DNA from: an uncultured Planctomycetia bacterium
Lineage (GTDB): Bacteria > Omnitrophota > Gorgyraeia > Tantalellales > Tantalellaceae
Direction of reading: 5' to 3'
DNA: 64,000 nucleotides
Assembly: GCA_964572255.1 (NCBI GenBank)
Contig: CAZNEE010000001.1
Coordinates: forward strand, 459,587-523,586
The position numbers and the translations under genes were made by a program. The notes beneath the pieces are model-generated. The model made no database searches. It was given only the letters and a program-made list of their open reading frames with translations, and was not told the origin of the DNA. How positions within the stretch are numbered: position 1 is the first letter of the stretch; the number at the start of each line of letters is the position of its first letter. Below are positions 51,546 through 55,892 of the stretch, in pieces.

Positions 51546-51619
51546 TAAAAATTTAAATATCTGTAAATAAATAACTTACAAGTCAAACATCCTGCCTTAA
51601 AAAGATAATCCCCAAAGGT

Positions 51620-51648
51620 TTGCCAATCAAGACAAAATATGATATACT
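51620..51648 (+). promoter_or_regulatory. Sigma-70-type promoter (TTGCCA-17 nt-TATACT) for PEP-CTERM gene 1.
   Basis: The -35 hexamer TTGCCA lies at 51620-51625 and the -10 hexamer TATACT at 51643-51648, with exact 17-nt spacing. The same promoter is duplicated at 52856-52884. Confidence 0.45.
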
Positions 51649-51737
51649 TTAGGTGATAGTAAAGTAAGCTCAAACCGGGGAAATATTTTATAAAGGGGCG
51701 CACCATTCGGGAGAATGGGGTGCGAATTGAAATGGAA

Positions 51738-51765
51738 ACCCAACCTTCCAATGGTTGGGTTTTTT
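51738..51765 (+). terminator. Intrinsic-terminator-like hairpin inside the 5' leader of PEP-CTERM gene 1 (attenuator candidate).
   Basis: ACCCAACC-TTCCAAT-GGTTGGGT is followed by TTTTTTGTTTT. It ends 9 nt before the ribosome-binding site AGGAGG (51774-51779). Upstream of it is a second conserved hairpin, GCGCACCATTC...GAATGGGGTGCG (51698-51724). Confidence 0.45.
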
Positions 51766-51787
51766 GTTTTAAAAGGAGGTGAGAAGA

Positions 51788-52420
51788 ATGAAGATGAAAA
51801 TTTTAATGATTTCTTTGATTATGACAATTGCTGTTTGCGGAGCCAGCACAGCGGATGCGGCACAAACGACGTTTGAAAATGAAATATATGATTGGACATC
51901 GTATCCTTTTTACTATGATGGCACCTGGGGTCCTTACCACGATGGCCCGATGACCCCCTTTGAACTTCCGAATAATATCGACCCGAACTATGAGGGGCCT
52001 TTTGATGTGATCCAGTTTTCTTATACGCCCCCGCTTTATGGGGAAATGGTCGAAGTTCTTTTTCATTCCGATGCAGCGACGCTAGTATACATAACCACTG
52101 ATATCACGCTGTACTATTACGGCACCTATACAAATGGCGGGTGGTGGGATTACACCGCGACGTTTGCCGAAGCGACTGACCTTACAGGATCTTCCGCTGT
52201 TTTTGACGGCGCGTTCGATTTTCGTATCGATACGAGCAACGGTCCTCCGGAGGGCGAGAGAACATATTTTGGAACTGGGTACTATTCCGGGCCTAATGCC
52301 GGCGGTACGATCACGTACGAAGCTTCTGGCGGCGGACCTGCACCAGTACCGGAACCGGCAACAATGACAATATTCGGTCTTGGGATATTGGGGTTGGCTG
52401 TAAAGAGGTTTCGTAAATAA
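51788..52420 (+). CDS. PEP-CTERM sorting-domain protein 1 (start moved to ATG at 51788).
   Basis: The signal peptide is MKMKILMISLIMTIAVCGASTADA. The C-terminus VPEPATMTIFGLGILGLAVKRFRK is a canonical PEP-CTERM signal (PEP motif, TM helix, basic tail). Confidence 0.8.
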   Translation: MKMKILMISLIMTIAVCGASTADAAQTTFENEIYDWTSYPFYYDGTWGPYHDGPMTPFELPNNIDPNYEGPFDVIQFSYTPPLYGEMVEVLFHSDAATLVYITTDITLYYYGTYTNGGWWDYTATFAEATDLTGSSAVFDGAFDFRIDTSNGPPEGERTYFGTGYYSGPNAGGTITYEASGGGPAPVPEPATMTIFGLGILGLAVKRFRK

Positions 52421-52422
52421 TA

Positions 52423-52454
52423 GGGACGGTTATAAGAGGAAATAAAACCGTCCC
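52423..52454 (+). terminator. Conserved 3' hairpin immediately after the PEP-CTERM 1 stop codon.
   Basis: GGGACGG-(18-nt loop)-CCGTCCC overlaps the stop codon TAG. Counterpart GGGACG...CGTCCC at 53681-53714 follows PEP-CTERM 2. No T-tract follows, so it may be a stabilising or processing hairpin rather than a terminator. Confidence 0.3.
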
Positions 52455-52855
52455 TAAAGGGCAAAGTTATGCAAGCTTATGTGTTCTTTGTCTTTTTCTT
52501 TTTTAATCCCTTCAGTATTTCATCTCCATTTATTGATAATATGATTCCGAAAGCTTTCTTTGTTCAAATGCTTTTCTTGACGCTTTTTTTCTAACATTTT
52601 GAGGGGTGTTAAATAAACTCCTCGCCCTGTAGGGCTCGTCGAACATATTTAACACTTTTTCCCTCAAAAGTTATAAAAAAAGCTGAAAAGCATGATTCAC
52701 TCAGAAAACTTCCGGAATCATTTCGTAAATGACAGGGGCGATTCTTAATAAGGAAGAAAGTCCCTGTAGGACAACCGGGAAAATTTTTAAGTATTTCAAA
52801 CAAATAACTTACAAATTATTTGATCCTGCCTTAAATTGAAATAATTCCTGAAGGT

Positions 52856-52884
52856 TTGCCGATCAAGACAAAATATGATATACT
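52856..52884 (+). promoter_or_regulatory. Sigma-70-type promoter (TTGCCG-17 nt-TATACT) for PEP-CTERM gene 2; duplicate of 51620-51648.
   Basis: The spacer ATCAAGACAAAATATGA and the -10 hexamer are identical to copy 1. Confidence 0.45.
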
Positions 52885-52973
52885 TTAAGTGATAATAAAG
52901 TAAGCTCGAATCGGGAAAAATATTTTATAAGGGGCGCACCATTCGAAGGAATGGGTAGCTGAAAAATATGTTA

Positions 52974-53002
52974 ACCCAACCTTCCGATGGTTGGGTTTTT
53001 TA
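52974..53002 (+). terminator. Intrinsic-terminator-like hairpin in the leader of PEP-CTERM gene 2 (duplicate attenuator candidate).
   Basis: ACCCAACC-TTCCGAT-GGTTGGGT is followed by TTTTTTATTTT. Only one loop base differs from copy 1. The ribosome-binding site AGGAGG lies at 53012-53017. Confidence 0.45.
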
Positions 53003-53024
53003 TTTTGGAAAGGAGGTGAGAAGA

Positions 53025-53681
53025 ATGAAGAAACTATTAGCAATATTGCTCGTGGCCTTAGTGATGGGCTTATCAATGCCCTCAAGTGCTTTTGCCCAGT
53101 GGCATATTGGAGGTATTGACGAACCTAATCATGGTGTTGCTGATTTCACTGTTCCTAGCATAACAGGTGACCCAGGTGATTCTAACAACGTAGGCCTCGT
53201 ACTTGCGAGCTTTTGGAGCGATGATTATATGCAGCCCGTAACGGGTGTGTATTTGCACCATAGTGTTCACCAAACCCCATTTACGGTACCAACTGGCACC
53301 ACTTTTGCTTTAGCTTTACCAGGCATTGGTGGAACAACCTTTGTTGAGGAAGATGCCAATCAGACTGCAACAGGTGATAATGGTACTAATTTCTTTCTTA
53401 TGGCTGATGTCGGGGATTTCAGTTCTTATTATGTGGGTCCGGTTGGCGACGAAGGTATTCATGTTGGAACACTTATTGCCTATCCGGGTTGGGGTGAGTG
53501 GAGCTTTCCTGATCCTGTTCAACAGACTGACTTGAGTGTAGCTTCGTTGGACTCGTTACCTAGTGACGAAATCTGGTTTAATAGTGGGCTTCCTGAGGCT
53601 GGGGGGGTAATCCCGGAACCCGCAACAATGGCGATTTTAGGCATCGGTATTTTTGGGCTGGCTTTAAAACACCGCAAATAG
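53025..53681 (+). CDS. PEP-CTERM sorting-domain protein 2 (start moved to ATG at 53025).
   Basis: The signal peptide is MKKLLAILLVALVMGLSMPSSAFA. The C-terminus IPEPATMAILGIGIFGLALKHRK is a PEP-CTERM signal. The mature region is unrelated to protein 1. Confidence 0.8.
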   Translation: MKKLLAILLVALVMGLSMPSSAFAQWHIGGIDEPNHGVADFTVPSITGDPGDSNNVGLVLASFWSDDYMQPVTGVYLHHSVHQTPFTVPTGTTFALALPGIGGTTFVEEDANQTATGDNGTNFFLMADVGDFSSYYVGPVGDEGIHVGTLIAYPGWGEWSFPDPVQQTDLSVASLDSLPSDEIWFNSGLPEAGGVIPEPATMAILGIGIFGLALKHRK

Positions 53682-53828
53682 GGACGTTTCCAAAAATAAT
53701 CCCGGAAGCGTCCCTAAGGTCAAAGCCAGACCTGTCCCCATCACGGGGGAGAATTATTTTTGTCTTTTTTTTATACCCTCACCACTTACTTCAAATTCTT
53801 TTTTTAATAAAGATAGTTTTATATTGCT

Positions 53829-54130: not shown

Positions 54131-54718
54131 ATGGATTACGATAAACTGCAAAAATTAAGAAAGAGGCTGTATTTTTCAGTTGAAGACGCGGCGGAGCTTC
54201 TGGATGTAAAGCGCGCCTCCGCGCGCGTTCTGTGCAATAGGAACGCCAAAAAGGGGATATTTATAAGGATTAAGAAAGACCTTTACGTTCTGGAGCAGAA
54301 TTGGAAGAATTATTCAAGGGAGGGGTTTTTTATGATCTCTAATATCCTGCAGGTCCCTTCGTATATCTCTCTCTTGACCGCCTTATCATATTTTGAAGTG
54401 ACCACCCAGGTCCAGAAAGATTTTTACGAGAATATTTCCCTGAAACGTTCGGTGAATTTTAACGCGAAAGGCGTTACATTCACCTACAGCAAGCTGAACA
54501 AAGCGCTTTATTTCGGTTTCGCGAGGAAGGACAATATATTCATAGCCACGAAGGAAAAGGCGTTTGTTGATGCGGTCTACCTTTATTCATACGGGAAATA
54601 CAGTTTGGATTTCAGCTCGCTGGATCTTAACAAACTGGAGAAGGGGAATTTGAAGAAAATAGTCTCAAAATTCCCCCAAAAAACAAAGGATATAGTAGGT
54701 GAAAAATGCGGGATCTGA
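54131..54718 (+). CDS. AbiEi-like antitoxin / transcriptional regulator (type IV toxin-antitoxin, N-terminal winged-helix).
   Basis: The N-terminus LQKLRKRLYFSVEDAAELLDVKRASARVLCNRNAKKGIFIRIKKDLYVL fits the AbiEi N-terminal domain pattern. The gene overlaps the downstream nucleotidyltransferase gene. Confidence 0.65.
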   Translation: MDYDKLQKLRKRLYFSVEDAAELLDVKRASARVLCNRNAKKGIFIRIKKDLYVLEQNWKNYSREGFFMISNILQVPSYISLLTALSYFEVTTQVQKDFYENISLKRSVNFNAKGVTFTYSKLNKALYFGFARKDNIFIATKEKAFVDAVYLYSYGKYSLDFSSLDLNKLEKGNLKKIVSKFPQKTKDIVGEKCGI

Positions 54719-55374
54719 TCAAGCAGGAACAGTTCGAGTTGGAAGTCCTGGACAAACTGAACAGCGGCAAGCTCCTCCCCAGGCTTGTCTTCGGCGGAGG
54801 GACAATGCTGAGGCTTTGCCATGGGCTTAACAGGTATTCCGTGGATCTTGATTTCTGGATCGATAAAAAGATCGACAAGAAGAAACTGTTCAACGGCCTG
54901 AAAGATCTTTTGTCGCGATCTTACAAGATCAAAGACGCGGCGTATAAATTCAACACGATACTTTTTGAAATACGCTCAGGGTCTTATCCCAGGAGCCTTA
55001 AGATAGAGATAAGGAAGAAAATAAAGAAGGTTGCTACCGAACAGGTGATCGCCTACAGCGGTCATTCCAATATGCAGGTTGTTCTCAGAAGCGTGTCTCT
55101 TGCCGATATGATGAAAGCCAAAATAGAGGCGTTCCTTAACAGGAAAGAAATAAGGGATGCTTTCGACATGGAATTTTTGGTGAAAAAGGGGATCGGACTG
55201 GAAGCGCCGAAAGGCGATCTTGAGAGGCTGCTTAAGAACCTTGATGCGCTTACTAAGAATGATTACGCTGTAAAGCTTGGTTCTCTTTTGGATGAAAGCC
55301 AAAGACGGTATTATGTCAAAGAGAATTTCAAGATCCTCAGGTCAAAGATCCTTGAAAAACTAAAAAAATATTGA
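54706..55374 (+). CDS. AbiEii/AbiGii-family nucleotidyltransferase toxin (DUF1814).
   Basis: The stretch LLPRLVFGGGTMLRLCHGLNRYSVDLDFW has the GGT...R...GxxRxSxDLDF signature of the AbiEii nucleotidyltransferase family. Confidence 0.7.
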   Translation: MRDLIKQEQFELEVLDKLNSGKLLPRLVFGGGTMLRLCHGLNRYSVDLDFWIDKKIDKKKLFNGLKDLLSRSYKIKDAAYKFNTILFEIRSGSYPRSLKIEIRKKIKKVATEQVIAYSGHSNMQVVLRSVSLADMMKAKIEAFLNRKEIRDAFDMEFLVKKGIGLEAPKGDLERLLKNLDALTKNDYAVKLGSLLDESQRRYYVKENFKILRSKILEKLKKY

Positions 55375-55420
55375 CTGTTGCATAAAAATTTTCTTATGAT
55401 ATACTTAACTTTGTTTTACT

Positions 55421-55495
55421 GCCGGCGTAGCTCAGTGGTAGAGCAGGGGTTTTGTAAACCTCTGGTCGGGGGTTCAAATCCCTCCGCCGGCTCCA
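55421..55495 (+). tRNA. tRNA-Thr (anticodon UGU).
   Basis: The cloverleaf is acceptor GCCGGCG/CGCCGGC, D-arm GCTC-AGTGGTA-GAGC, anticodon stem GGGGT/ACCTC with loop TTTGTAA, and T-arm GGGGG-TTCAAAT-CCCTC followed by T-CCA. Confidence 0.85.
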
Positions 55496-55598: not shown

Positions 55599-55892
55599 AT
55601 GAATATGAAGAGATTGATATGTTCAATTCTACTGGTTTCATTCGCTGTTTTTCTCTCTTTTATCAGTAATGCCGAAGATTATTTGACTGACTCAGGTGAG
55701 GTAAAAGAAGAAATTGATACTGAAGACTATATGACAGATTCCGGCGAGATCAGGCAAAGCGTAGAGGGTGAGTATATGACAGATTCCGGCGAGCTTGAAG
55801 AGGGATATGATGTTTTTCCCCAGCCTGATGTAAGCGGAGAAATAGAGCAGGACCTGCAAGAAGAAGGCCTGAGCGAAGAAGAGGAAGAATAA
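55599..55892 (+). CDS. Small secreted acidic protein with three DYMTDSGE repeats (hypothetical). The start was moved outside tRNA-Tyr.
   Basis: The translation is MNMKRLICSILLVSFAVFLSFISNAEDYLTDSGEVKEEIDTEDYMTDSGEIRQSVEGEYMTDSGELEEGYD...EEGLSEEEEE. It has a signal peptide plus a tandem acidic repeat. Confidence 0.45.
   Translation: MNMKRLICSILLVSFAVFLSFISNAEDYLTDSGEVKEEIDTEDYMTDSGEIRQSVEGEYMTDSGELEEGYDVFPQPDVSGEIEQDLQEEGLSEEEEE

What the first reader, a model, noticed from the sequence alone, without database searches (positions are those of the whole stretch)
51649..51787. Attenuator-like or riboswitch-like leader: strong intrinsic terminator 9 nt upstream of the Shine-Dalgarno of each PEP-CTERM gene
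Downstream of the predicted -10 hexamer, the approximately 135-nt leader contains a conserved imperfect hairpin (GCGCACCATTC-GGGAG-GAATGGGGTGCG). It then contains a canonical rho-independent terminator (ACCCAACC-TTCCAAT-GGTTGGGT-TTTTTT) that ends just before the AGGAGG site. The second copy (52885-53024) preserves both structures with only loop and bulge substitutions, which is a covariation-like pattern. A terminator placed between promoter and ribosome-binding site implies conditional read-through (by a protein, a small RNA or a ligand). I do not know of a described cis-regulatory RNA for PEP-CTERM genes.
Basis: partly seen in the sequence, partly recalled or inferred. Interest (0 to 1): 0.65.

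Follow-up and report, generated by a model that had tools for sequence, protein, structure and literature searches.

The report
Truncated c-di-GMP riboswitch relic with terminator
The leaders of two neighbouring PEP-CTERM surface-protein genes in this Omnitrophota genome are cut-down descendants of the known c-di-GMP-I (GEMM-I) riboswitch: they keep its first hairpin and its terminator but have lost the half that binds the signal, so they probably act as signal-blind transcription brakes.

Summary
The hairpin, the terminator and the second copy are real. Each leader follows a tRNA-type promoter, and all transcription into either PEP-CTERM gene must pass the terminator.

The two window copies show no covariation. 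They are a roughly 250-nt duplicated promoter-leader cassette.

A contig from a sister lineage (L005) decides the identity:
- Its gene-1 ortholog has the same short leader, with one compensatory C-G to U-A change in the terminator.
- Its gene-2 ortholog is preceded by a bona fide c-di-GMP-I riboswitch (RF01051, 57 bits), followed by the same terminator and the same ribosome-binding site.

Hairpin 1 of the window leaders aligns without indels to the P2/P1a hairpin of GEMM-I. The following are missing or changed:
- the P3/P1b helix;
- A47 and C92;
- the C44-G83 interhelical pair;
- the tetraloop receptor.

Rfam scores are far below threshold (19 bits for copy 1, nothing for copy 2).

In the full riboswitch a significant antiterminator competes with a weak P1a, which points to a c-di-GMP OFF switch. 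In the short leaders P1a is stronger, and the terminator fold is favoured by 10-13 kcal/mol.

Best reading: a riboswitch-derived, ligand-independent attenuator. Read-through is either basal or controlled by an unknown factor. I found only the window lineage and one sister lineage, so this is a modestly interesting variant of a known kind.

The parts
51570..51619 (+). Conserved block upstream of the -35 element of copy 1. Its counterpart in copy 2 is 52803-52855. It may be a regulator binding site or UP element.
   Evidence: It aligns between the two cassettes. Its function was not tested.
51620..51648 (+). Promoter of copy 1: TTGCCA, 17-nt spacer with TG, TATACT. The transcription start is inferred at about 51655.
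   Evidence: Promoter scan gives 10 of 12 matches plus an extended -10. The same motif precedes a tRNA gene at 55378-55405.
51659..51691 (+). 5'-proximal stem-loop of the leader (AUAAAGUA...UAUUUUAU). It lies in the best conserved part of the leader.
   Evidence: It is part of the MFE fold and is nearly invariant in the three short leaders. The long form has an analogous 5' hairpin.
51698..51723 (+). Hairpin 1 of copy 1. It is the homologue of the P2/P1a hairpin of the c-di-GMP-I riboswitch: GC lower stem, 3x3 region, 6-bp stem CCAUUC/GAAUGG, GGGA loop.
   Evidence: cmscan aligns it without indels to c-di-GMP-I-GGC positions 10-37, scoring 19.1 bits against a gathering score of 59. It sits at the position of P1a in the L005 riboswitch.
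51724..51737 (+). Short linker occupying the place where the P3/P1b helix, C92 and the 3' strand of P1 lie in a complete GEMM-I aptamer.
   Evidence: cmscan deletes 35 model positions here. This segment evolves at about the neutral rate: 8 of 26 positions differ from L005, against a synonymous divergence of 0.28.
51738..51770 (+). Intrinsic terminator of copy 1: 8-bp G+C-rich stem (up to 11-12 bp with A-U extension), 7-nt loop, TTTTTTGTTTT tract.
   Evidence: Found by the terminator scan. Folds at -16.1 kcal/mol. L005 carries a compensatory C-G to U-A change. The same terminator follows the bona fide riboswitch in L005.
51774..51790 (+). AGGAGG Shine-Dalgarno (51774-51779) and ATG (51788) of PEP-CTERM gene 1.
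   Evidence: Read from the sequence. Identical in all four leaders apart from one base.
51788..52420 (+). PEP-CTERM gene 1 (210 aa).
   Evidence: TIGR02595 scores 17.5 bits against a cut-off of 16. dN/dS against the L005 ortholog is 0.26, so the gene is under purifying selection.
52856..52884 (+). Promoter of copy 2 (TTGCCG, 17-nt spacer, TATACT).
52933..52960 (+). Hairpin 1 of copy 2 (P1a-like): GGC/GCU lower stem, 3x3 internal loop, CCAUUC/GAAUGG stem, GAAG loop.
   Evidence: Fold. No c-di-GMP family match even at E up to 10.
52974..53006 (+). Intrinsic terminator of copy 2.
   Evidence: -14.3 kcal/mol.
53011..53027 (+). AGGAGG (53011-53016) and ATG (53025) of PEP-CTERM gene 2.
53025..53681 (+). 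PEP-CTERM gene 2 (218 aa).
   Evidence: TIGR02595 scores 18.8 bits against a cut-off of 16.

Best explanation
Each leader is a truncated descendant of a c-di-GMP-I (GEMM-I) transcriptional OFF riboswitch.

What it keeps:
- a strong tRNA-type promoter;
- a 5' stem-loop;
- the P2/P1a hairpin of the aptamer;
- the intrinsic terminator of the expression platform, placed directly before the ribosome-binding site.

What it has lost:
- the P3/P1b helix;
- the junction nucleotides that hold c-di-GMP.

In the complete riboswitch of the sister lineage, the loop and 3' arm of P1a can pair with the 5' arm of the terminator. That pairing is an antiterminator. Ligand binding would lock P1a, let the terminator form and switch the gene off.

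In the short leaders P1a is intrinsically more stable and the antiterminator is weaker. P1a plus terminator is therefore the default fold. The leader behaves like a permanently 'ligand-bound' riboswitch, that is, a ligand-independent attenuator. It ends most transcripts after about 110 nt. The PEP-CTERM gene is expressed only by basal read-through, or by read-through promoted by a factor not yet identified.

Shown: the anatomy, the homology to GEMM-I, the missing parts, and the energetics. Inferred: the OFF logic of the full form, the loss of c-di-GMP binding, and actual termination in vivo.
For: 1. L005:949-1035 is a bona fide c-di-GMP-I aptamer (57.1 bits, gathering score 35). It lies upstream of the gene-2 ortholog and is followed by the same terminator and the same SD/start region as the window leaders.
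2. Window hairpin 1 aligns to the P1a part of the family model without indels. It shares CCAUUC/GRAUGG with the L005 riboswitch.
3. The cmscan alignment deletes the 35 model positions that hold P3. A47 is G (copy 1), G (L005 copy 1) or U (copy 2). C44 is U, C or A. No C92 equivalent exists. The loops are GGGA, GGAG and GAAG, against GAAA in the full form. G20, A47 and C92 contact the ligand, and the interhelical P2-P3 pair is universal in GEMM (PMC4744006).
4. Scores are 19.1 bits for copy 1 and no match for copy 2.
5. Energetics: in the full form P1a is -8.0 and the antiterminator -15.9 kcal/mol. In the short forms P1a is -12.3 to -15.1 and the antiterminator -10.6 to -13.8 kcal/mol.
6. The full-form antiterminator is better than all but 0-0.25% of shuffles, and it is part of the full-length MFE structure. 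In the short forms, forbidding the terminator costs 10.4-13.1 kcal/mol.
7. The terminator is under selection: there is one compensatory change. The leader diverges by about 13-15%, against a synonymous divergence of 0.28.
8. The former aptamer centre evolves at roughly the neutral rate, 8 of 26 positions.
9. Gene 1 has dN/dS 0.26, so it is a functional gene.
10. The promoter type is shared with a tRNA gene.
11. c-di-GMP-I riboswitches upstream of tandem PEP-CTERM genes are documented elsewhere.
Against: - Only three short leaders from two closely related lineages are available, and recombination between paralogues is evident. Constraint and covariation therefore rest on very few events.
- The antiterminator complementarity is retained, significantly so in copy 2 (p about 0.01-0.02).
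- One P1a substitution in L005 (G to A) breaks a P1a pair but matches the C to U change in the terminator 5' arm. This hints that switching is still selected.
- The 5' 45 nt are very conserved and have no assigned role.
- A constitutive terminator in front of genes under purifying selection is an odd design unless read-through is regulated.
- Thermodynamic folds do not capture co-transcriptional kinetics.
- No binding or transcription data exist.
Confidence: 0.55

Rival explanations
1. The short leader is still a ligand-sensing riboswitch, for c-di-GMP or a related nucleotide, with a minimal or re-wired architecture. For example, the terminator hairpin might stand in for P3, and A/U-rich flanks might form P1.
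For: - The J1/2-like AAAGGGG with a G20 equivalent and the P1a geometry are retained.
- Each copy can draw a P1-like A/U helix around hairpin 1; it appears in the MFE fold of L005 copy 1.
- G at position 47 matches the consensus of the c-di-GMP-I-GGC variant.
- Antiterminator complementarity persists.
Against: - A47 varies (G, G, U). C44 varies (U, C, A). There is no C92 and no P3 partner for the interhelical pair.
- The tetraloop differs in all three copies.
- The P1-like helices are in different registers in each copy and are made of A/U runs that pair easily (my reading).
- The centre of the element evolves at the neutral rate.
- Copy 2 gives no family match at all.
Confidence: 0.12
2. Read-through is controlled in trans. 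A protein or small RNA binds the highly conserved 5' part of the leader, or the GGA-containing loops, and destabilises P1a or the terminator. This would be processive or RNA-binding antitermination layered on the riboswitch relic.
For: - The 5' 45 nt plus the P1a 5' arm are the most conserved part of the leader, while the centre drifts.
- Genes under purifying selection sit behind a strong terminator.
- A conserved block upstream of -35 also suggests dedicated regulation.
- GGA motifs occur in the hairpin-1 loop region and in the SD of all copies (read from the sequences).
Against: - No candidate factor is identified in the window.
- The 5' conservation could reflect promoter-proximal or RNA-stability functions, or recent gene conversion.
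- No covariation is available.
Confidence: 0.18
3. The main product is the terminated RNA of about 110 nt itself. It would be a riboswitch-derived small RNA made from a tRNA-strength promoter and acting in trans, with PEP-CTERM expression a by-product of leakage.
For: - A strong promoter plus a strong terminator predicts an abundant short transcript.
- Two paralogous copies have a conserved 5' end and terminator and a variable middle.
- Terminated riboswitch transcripts acting in trans are known, for example Listeria SreA/SreB (from my own knowledge).
Against: - No target complementarity was examined.
- The element is always fused to a PEP-CTERM gene with a conserved SD 8 nt downstream of the U-tract.
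- No free-standing copy exists in the window or in related loci.
Confidence: 0.1
4. The element is decaying, functionless debris. The similarity of the two copies only reflects recent duplication or gene conversion, and the hairpins do nothing specific.
For: - The two copies are a duplicated cassette.
- Paralogue recombination is evident (L011 chimera).
- The centre evolves at the neutral rate.
Against: - There is a compensatory change in the terminator.
- The leader is about twice as conserved as synonymous sites.
- The same terminator is kept in the short and the full forms.
- A canonical terminator in the only transcription path necessarily affects expression.
Confidence: 0.05

Closest known systems
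c-di-GMP-I (GEMM-I) riboswitch, Rfam RF01051, and its variant c-di-GMP-I-GGC, RF03167
   Same: - The P2/P1a hairpin has the same geometry and partly the same sequence (CCAUUC...GRAUGG).
- The purine-rich J1/2 has a G20 equivalent.
- The expression platform is an intrinsic terminator.
- The element is associated with PEP-CTERM genes.
- It occupies the orthologous position of a bona fide member in contig L005.
   Different: - P3/P1b is absent.
- There is no C92, no conserved A47, no C44-G83 interhelical pair and no tetraloop receptor.
- Scores are far below gathering (19.1 bits, or none).
- P1a is stabilised, so the terminator fold dominates without ligand.
Singlet glycine riboswitches with a degenerate 'ghost' aptamer (from my own knowledge)
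   Same: This is a natural case in which part of a multi-helix or multi-domain riboswitch has degenerated while the rest is kept.
   Different: There the remaining aptamer still binds ligand and the ghost supplies tertiary contacts. Here the lost part is integral to the single binding pocket, so binding is probably gone.
Ligand-independent 5'-UTR transcription attenuators and premature intrinsic terminators
   Same: A promoter-proximal hairpin plus a terminator before the SD. Alternative pairing exists between the 3' arm of hairpin 1 and the 5' arm of the terminator (regions 1:2, 2:3 and 3:4).
   Different: There is no conserved leader peptide and no identified RNA-binding regulator. The origin from a riboswitch is traceable.
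Riboswitch-derived trans-acting small RNAs, such as Listeria SreA/SreB (from my own knowledge)
   Same: A terminated riboswitch leader would accumulate as a small RNA.
   Different: There is no evidence here of trans targets, and the sensor is truncated.

Membership tests
c-di-GMP-I riboswitch (RF01051 / RF03167) | Reaches the Rfam gathering score | tested here: not met
   The window has no match at gathering. Copy 1 scores 19.1 bits against RF03167 (gathering score 59). Copy 2 has no c-di-GMP family match at E up to 10. The L005 long leader scores 57.1 bits (gathering score 35) as a positive control.
c-di-GMP-I riboswitch (RF01051 / RF03167) | P2/P1a hairpin: 2-bp GC stem, 3x3 internal region, 6-bp stem, tetraloop | tested here: met
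   The cmscan alignment across model positions 10-37 has no indels. The same spacing is seen in all three short leaders.
c-di-GMP-I riboswitch (RF01051 / RF03167) | P3/P1b hairpin forming the three-helix junction | tested here: not met
   35 model positions are deleted. Only 14-17 nt lie between hairpin 1 and the terminator.
c-di-GMP-I riboswitch (RF01051 / RF03167) | Ligand-contacting nucleotides G20, A47 and C92 (PMC4744006) | tested here: not met
   A G20 equivalent is present. Position 47 is G, G or U. There is no C92 equivalent, because U-tract or linker occupies that place.
c-di-GMP-I riboswitch (RF01051 / RF03167) | Universal interhelical Watson-Crick pair between P2 and P3 (C44-G83 in Vc2 numbering) | tested here: not met
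   Position 44 is U, C or A in the three short leaders, and the P3 partner is absent.
c-di-GMP-I riboswitch (RF01051 / RF03167) | GNRA tetraloop docking into a receptor in P3 (type 1 members) | tested here: not met
   The loops are GGGA, GGAG and GAAG. Only the first is GNRA. The receptor helix is absent. The L005 full form has GAAA.
c-di-GMP-I riboswitch (RF01051 / RF03167) | Binds c-di-GMP and changes the expression platform | not testable with these tools
   This needs in-line probing or ITC and in vitro transcription.
c-di-GMP-I riboswitch (RF01051 / RF03167) | Typical genomic context (5' UTR of surface, EPS or PEP-CTERM genes) | tested here: met
   Both downstream genes pass TIGR02595. 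The literature gives a precedent. A bona fide riboswitch sits at the orthologous position in L005.
Rho-independent (intrinsic) terminator | G+C-rich stem-loop followed directly by a U-tract, on the transcribed strand downstream of a promoter | tested here: met
   Terminator scan hits at 51734-51764 and 52973-52997. Hairpin energies are -14.3 to -16.1 kcal/mol. One compensatory pair change is seen.
Rho-independent (intrinsic) terminator | Transcript 3' ends at the U-tract in vivo or in vitro | not testable with these tools
   This needs term-seq or in vitro transcription.
Leader-peptide transcription attenuator (trp/phe type) | Conserved short ORF in the leader whose translation selects the fold | tested here: not met
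   The ATG in the linker gives a 16-codon ORF in copy 1, an in-frame fusion in copy 2, and a stop after 3 codons in L005 copy 1.

The most novel reading that the evidence does not exclude
The P3-less leader is not a relic but a working regulatory RNA of a new architecture. It would be a GEMM-I-derived two-state attenuator (P1a plus terminator versus antiterminator) that has exchanged c-di-GMP sensing for another input. That input could be a different small ligand read by the conserved 5' domain plus P1a, or a dedicated RNA-binding factor. This would be a natural example of a riboswitch being re-wired after losing half its aptamer.
Probability: 0.15. Interest if true: 0.7.

Novelty: new variant of a known kind. 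Interest (0 to 1): 0.4.

Why it matters
- It links these PEP-CTERM surface-protein genes in Omnitrophota, an uncultured phylum of ultra-small bacteria, to c-di-GMP riboswitch control.
- It catches a riboswitch in the act of being dismantled. In sister lineages the same gene carries either a complete c-di-GMP-I OFF switch or a cut-down leader that keeps only P1a and the terminator.
- Such natural 'locked' derivatives show how expression platforms outlive their sensors.
- They are invisible to Rfam thresholds, so they can be mistaken for new riboswitch classes.
- If the short form proves to be regulated, it would be a rare example of aptamer re-wiring.

Tried and rejected
Searches that found nothing:
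- Collection scans for more copies. The terminator pattern (AACCTTYC N0-1 ATGGTTRGGTTTTTT) and the P1a pattern (AAGGGGCGCACCATTCGNNNGARTG) each gave 0 hits in metagenome contigs and in genome contigs. Both patterns work on local loci, so the lineage is simply absent from those collections.
- Protein route. Gene 1 has one homologue cluster besides itself (82% identity, L005). Gene 2 has none beyond a member at 90% or more (L011), whose leader is identical to copy 2.
- Synteny route through the upstream NAD(P)H-hydrate dehydratase. Relatives are about 70% identical Omnitrophota with tRNAs, not PEP-CTERM genes, after that gene.
- Covariance model of the three short leaders. It finds only those three, plus a weak terminator-driven hit on the L005 long leader.

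Ideas rejected:
- Leader-peptide attenuation: no conserved ORF.
- The terminator belonging to a convergent gene: all neighbouring genes are on the + strand, and the - strand version lacks a proper U-tract in copy 1.
- A conserved P1-like helix around hairpin 1. It can be drawn in each copy, but in different registers and from A/U runs, so I do not count it as evidence.
- The long-range 5' leader/SD pairing proposed by RNAalifold: only 4+2 pairs and no covariation.
- Other Rfam families: all matches are weak, terminator-driven chance hits.
- A quick regex for GGDEF or HD-GYP motifs in window ORFs of 150 aa or more found none. That check is not a proper domain search.

Full report
**1. Observation**

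- A sigma-70-type promoter lies at 51620-51648: TTGCCA, a 17-nt spacer ending in TGA, then TATACT.
- The leader is about 132 nt long and starts with a 5' stem-loop (51659-51691).
- Hairpin 1 is at 51698-51723. It has a lower stem GCGC/GUGC, an A/G mismatch, an upper stem CCAUUC/GAAUGG and a GGGA loop.
- A canonical intrinsic terminator follows: ACCCAACC, TTCCAAT, GGTTGGGT at 51738-51760, then TTTTTGTTTT.
- AGGAGG is at 51774-51779 and the ATG at 51788.

The second copy (promoter 52856-52884, hairpin 52933-52960, terminator 52974-52996, ATG 53025) has the same layout.

The features are more than chance:
- The terminator sequence occurs only at these two places, with 0 expected by chance.
- The leaders fold 3.4-3.8 sd better than shuffles.
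- The promoter motif TTGC-N-TGATATACT occurs three times in 64 kb, against 0.03 expected. The third site sits 15 nt upstream of a tRNA gene. This supports the promoter as real and strong.
- Both downstream proteins pass the TIGR02595 PEP-CTERM cut-off.

- The 'covariation-like' claim fails. The two copies are a duplicated cassette of about 250 nt that includes the promoter. Identity is 87% mean column identity by MAFFT and 83% over 248 nt by blastn. Similarity ends 6 nt into the coding region.
- The terminators differ by one loop base only.
- Copy 2 loses pairs in the lower stem of hairpin 1 and does not compensate for them.

**2. What it is**

Rfam at gathering thresholds finds only tRNAs in the window. 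In permissive mode, hairpin 1 of copy 1 gives a weak partial match to c-di-GMP-I-GGC (19.1 bits, gathering score 59). It covers the P1a hairpin without indels and deletes the 35 positions of the second hairpin. Copy 2 gives no such match.

The decisive evidence comes from a 1.5-kb ENA contig, L005, which carries an 82%-identical ortholog of gene 1.
- Upstream of that ortholog lies the same short leader. Its terminator carries a compensatory C-G to U-A change.
- Upstream of the gene-2 ortholog (94% nucleotide identity in the coding part) lies a bona fide c-di-GMP-I riboswitch. It is L005:949-1035, scoring 57.1 bits against a gathering score of 35.
- That riboswitch has P1a = AAACCAUUC-GAAA-GGAUGGGAC. 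It is followed by the same terminator (ACCCAACC-UUUCA-UGGUUGGGU-U6) and the same AAAGGAGGTGAGAAGAATGAAGA start region.

The window leaders are therefore homologues of a GEMM-I riboswitch leader from which the P3/P1b helix and the 3' junction have been removed. About 75 nt are missing between P1a and the terminator.

The organism is a member of Candidatus Omnitrophota. The neighbouring NAD(P)H-hydrate dehydratase is about 70% identical to proteins named so in NCBI. A relative, L006, carries a c-di-GMP-I-GGC riboswitch (63.2 bits) elsewhere, so the family is at home in this clade.

c-di-GMP riboswitches upstream of tandem PEP-CTERM genes have been reported in Methylophaga nitratireducenticrescens GP59 (PMC12530212, Table 4). 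A described cis-regulatory RNA for such genes therefore exists.

**3. What is kept and what is lost**

Kept:
- the A-rich/GGG J1/2 with a G20 equivalent;
- the 2-bp GC lower stem;
- the 3x3 region;
- the 6-bp upper stem and a tetraloop.

Lost or changed:
- the whole of P3;
- C92;
- A47, which is now G, G or U in window copy 1, L005 copy 1 and window copy 2;
- C44 of the universal interhelical pair, now U, C or A, with its partner gone;
- the tetraloop receptor, with loops GGGA, GGAG and GAAG differing in every copy while the full form has GAAA.

G20, A47 and C92 are the ligand contacts, and the interhelical pair is universal in GEMM (PMC4744006). The canonical pocket therefore cannot form.

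Divergence between window copy 1 and L005 copy 1 is uneven:
- The promoter-proximal 5' part and the P1a 5' arm are nearly invariant.
- The terminator changes only by the compensatory pair.
- The loop, 3' arm and linker differ at 8 of 26 positions. That is close to the synonymous divergence of gene 1 (pS 0.28, dN/dS 0.26).

The former sensor core therefore looks unconstrained, while the flanks and the terminator look constrained.

**4. How it most likely works**

Transcription into either gene must cross the terminator. There is no room for a promoter in the roughly 25 nt between the U-tract and the ATG.

In the full L005 riboswitch:
- The P1a loop plus 3' arm (GAAAGGAUGGG) is complementary to the terminator 5' arm plus loop (CCCAACCUUUC) at 10 of 11 positions.
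- This duplex is worth -15.9 kcal/mol. It is matched by 0.25% or fewer of shuffles, and it is part of the full-length MFE structure.
- P1a alone is worth only -8.0 kcal/mol.
- I infer an OFF switch. Without c-di-GMP the antiterminator forms. With c-di-GMP the aptamer holds P1a and the terminator forms.

In the short leaders:
- P1a is much stronger (-12.3 to -15.1 kcal/mol) and the antiterminator weaker (-10.6 to -13.8 kcal/mol).
- P1a plus terminator is the MFE structure. Forbidding the terminator costs 10-13 kcal/mol.

The short leaders therefore mimic the ligand-bound state without ligand. They should act as constitutive attenuators behind a strong promoter, producing mostly an RNA of about 110 nt and a minority of full-length mRNA. 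Because gene 1 is under purifying selection, some read-through must occur. I cannot tell whether it is merely basal or controlled by a trans factor.

**5. Points that keep the question open**

- Antiterminator complementarity is still significant in copy 2 (p about 0.01-0.02).
- In L005 copy 1 a G to A change that breaks a P1a pair matches the C to U change in the terminator 5' arm.
- The 5' 45 nt of the leader and a block upstream of -35 are strikingly conserved.

These points favour a still-regulated element, through protein or sRNA antitermination or a re-wired sensor. They rest on single events in a locus where paralogues clearly recombine. In strain L011, gene 2 carries the C-terminal tail and 3' hairpin of gene 1.

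**6. Comparison and membership**

The element works like a transcription attenuator and is evolutionarily a c-di-GMP-I riboswitch leader. It fails the membership tests for a functional c-di-GMP-I aptamer: the score, P3, A47, C92 and the interhelical pair. I therefore do not file it as a member. It is a truncated derivative, that is, a new variant of a known kind.

I know of no described P3-less GEMM-I derivative (from memory). The nearest analogy is the 'ghost aptamer' of singlet glycine riboswitches.

**7. Limits**

- All four collection scans found nothing.
- The PEP-CTERM proteins are orphans.
- Relatives at about 70% identity lack the genes at this site.
- The comparative set is therefore three short leaders and one full riboswitch from two very close lineages.

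**8. Verdict**

The riboswitch-like reading is half right. The element is explained by a known family rather than being a new class. Its truncated, terminator-locked state is a modestly interesting evolutionary variant that needs binding and transcription assays.

Noticed in passing
window 52539-52725: An imperfect palindrome of about 190 nt (arms about 71% complementary) lies between gene 1 and the second promoter-leader cassette. It produces spurious miRNA-precursor hits in Rfam. It is single-copy in the window and absent from the corresponding intergenic region of L005. It may be a MITE-like insertion linked to the replacement of the full riboswitch by the short cassette.
   Followed up: partly
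window 52422-52455 and 53680-53715; L005:793-826; L011:1075-1110: A conserved hairpin AGGGACG(G)...(C)CGTCCCT starts at or overlaps the stop codon of every PEP-CTERM gene. The stem is the same, the loops differ, and there is no U-tract. It could be a 3' stabiliser, a Rho-independent-like element without a tail, or a recombination boundary of the gene cassette.
   Followed up: partly
window 54131-55374 versus L011:1074-1240: An AbiEi/AbiEii-like toxin-antitoxin pair lies between gene 2 and the tRNA cluster in the window. It is absent in strain L011, where the tRNAs follow gene 2 directly. In about 70%-identical Omnitrophota the tRNAs follow the NAD(P)H-hydrate dehydratase gene directly. The PEP-CTERM pair plus AbiE therefore form a variable island at a tRNA cluster.
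   Followed up: partly
L011:414-1110 versus window 53025-53715 and 52350-52455: Gene 2 of strain L011 ends with the C-terminal sorting tail and 3' hairpin typical of gene 1 (...IFGLGILGLAVKRFRK). It is a chimera that shows recombination between the two paralogues through their conserved ends.
   Followed up: partly
window 55378-55405: The promoter-like motif of the two leaders (TTGC, 14-18 nt, TGATATACT) also sits 15 nt upstream of the first tRNA of the cluster at 55421. This suggests a strong housekeeping-type promoter consensus for this organism.
   Followed up: yes
window 56151-64000 (runs off the end); L006:20155-20291: A giant ORF of at least 2616 aa starts at 56151. Its homologue in relative L006 (3536 aa) is preceded by a c-di-GMP-I-GGC riboswitch (63.2 bits). 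The 3' part of that riboswitch overlaps the 5' arm of its terminator, which looks like an ON-type design. The window copy has no riboswitch match upstream. c-di-GMP riboswitches therefore seem to be gained and lost quickly in this clade.
   Followed up: partly
window 51570-51619 and 52803-52855: A conserved block of about 50 nt (AAATAACTTACAA...ATCCTGCCTTAAA) lies upstream of the -35 element in both cassettes. It may be a binding site for a transcription factor.
   Followed up: no
window about 55600-55892; L011:1423-1710: A small secreted-looking acidic protein with three Y(M/L)TDSGE repeats is encoded between the tRNA genes. It is conserved in strain L011.
   Followed up: no
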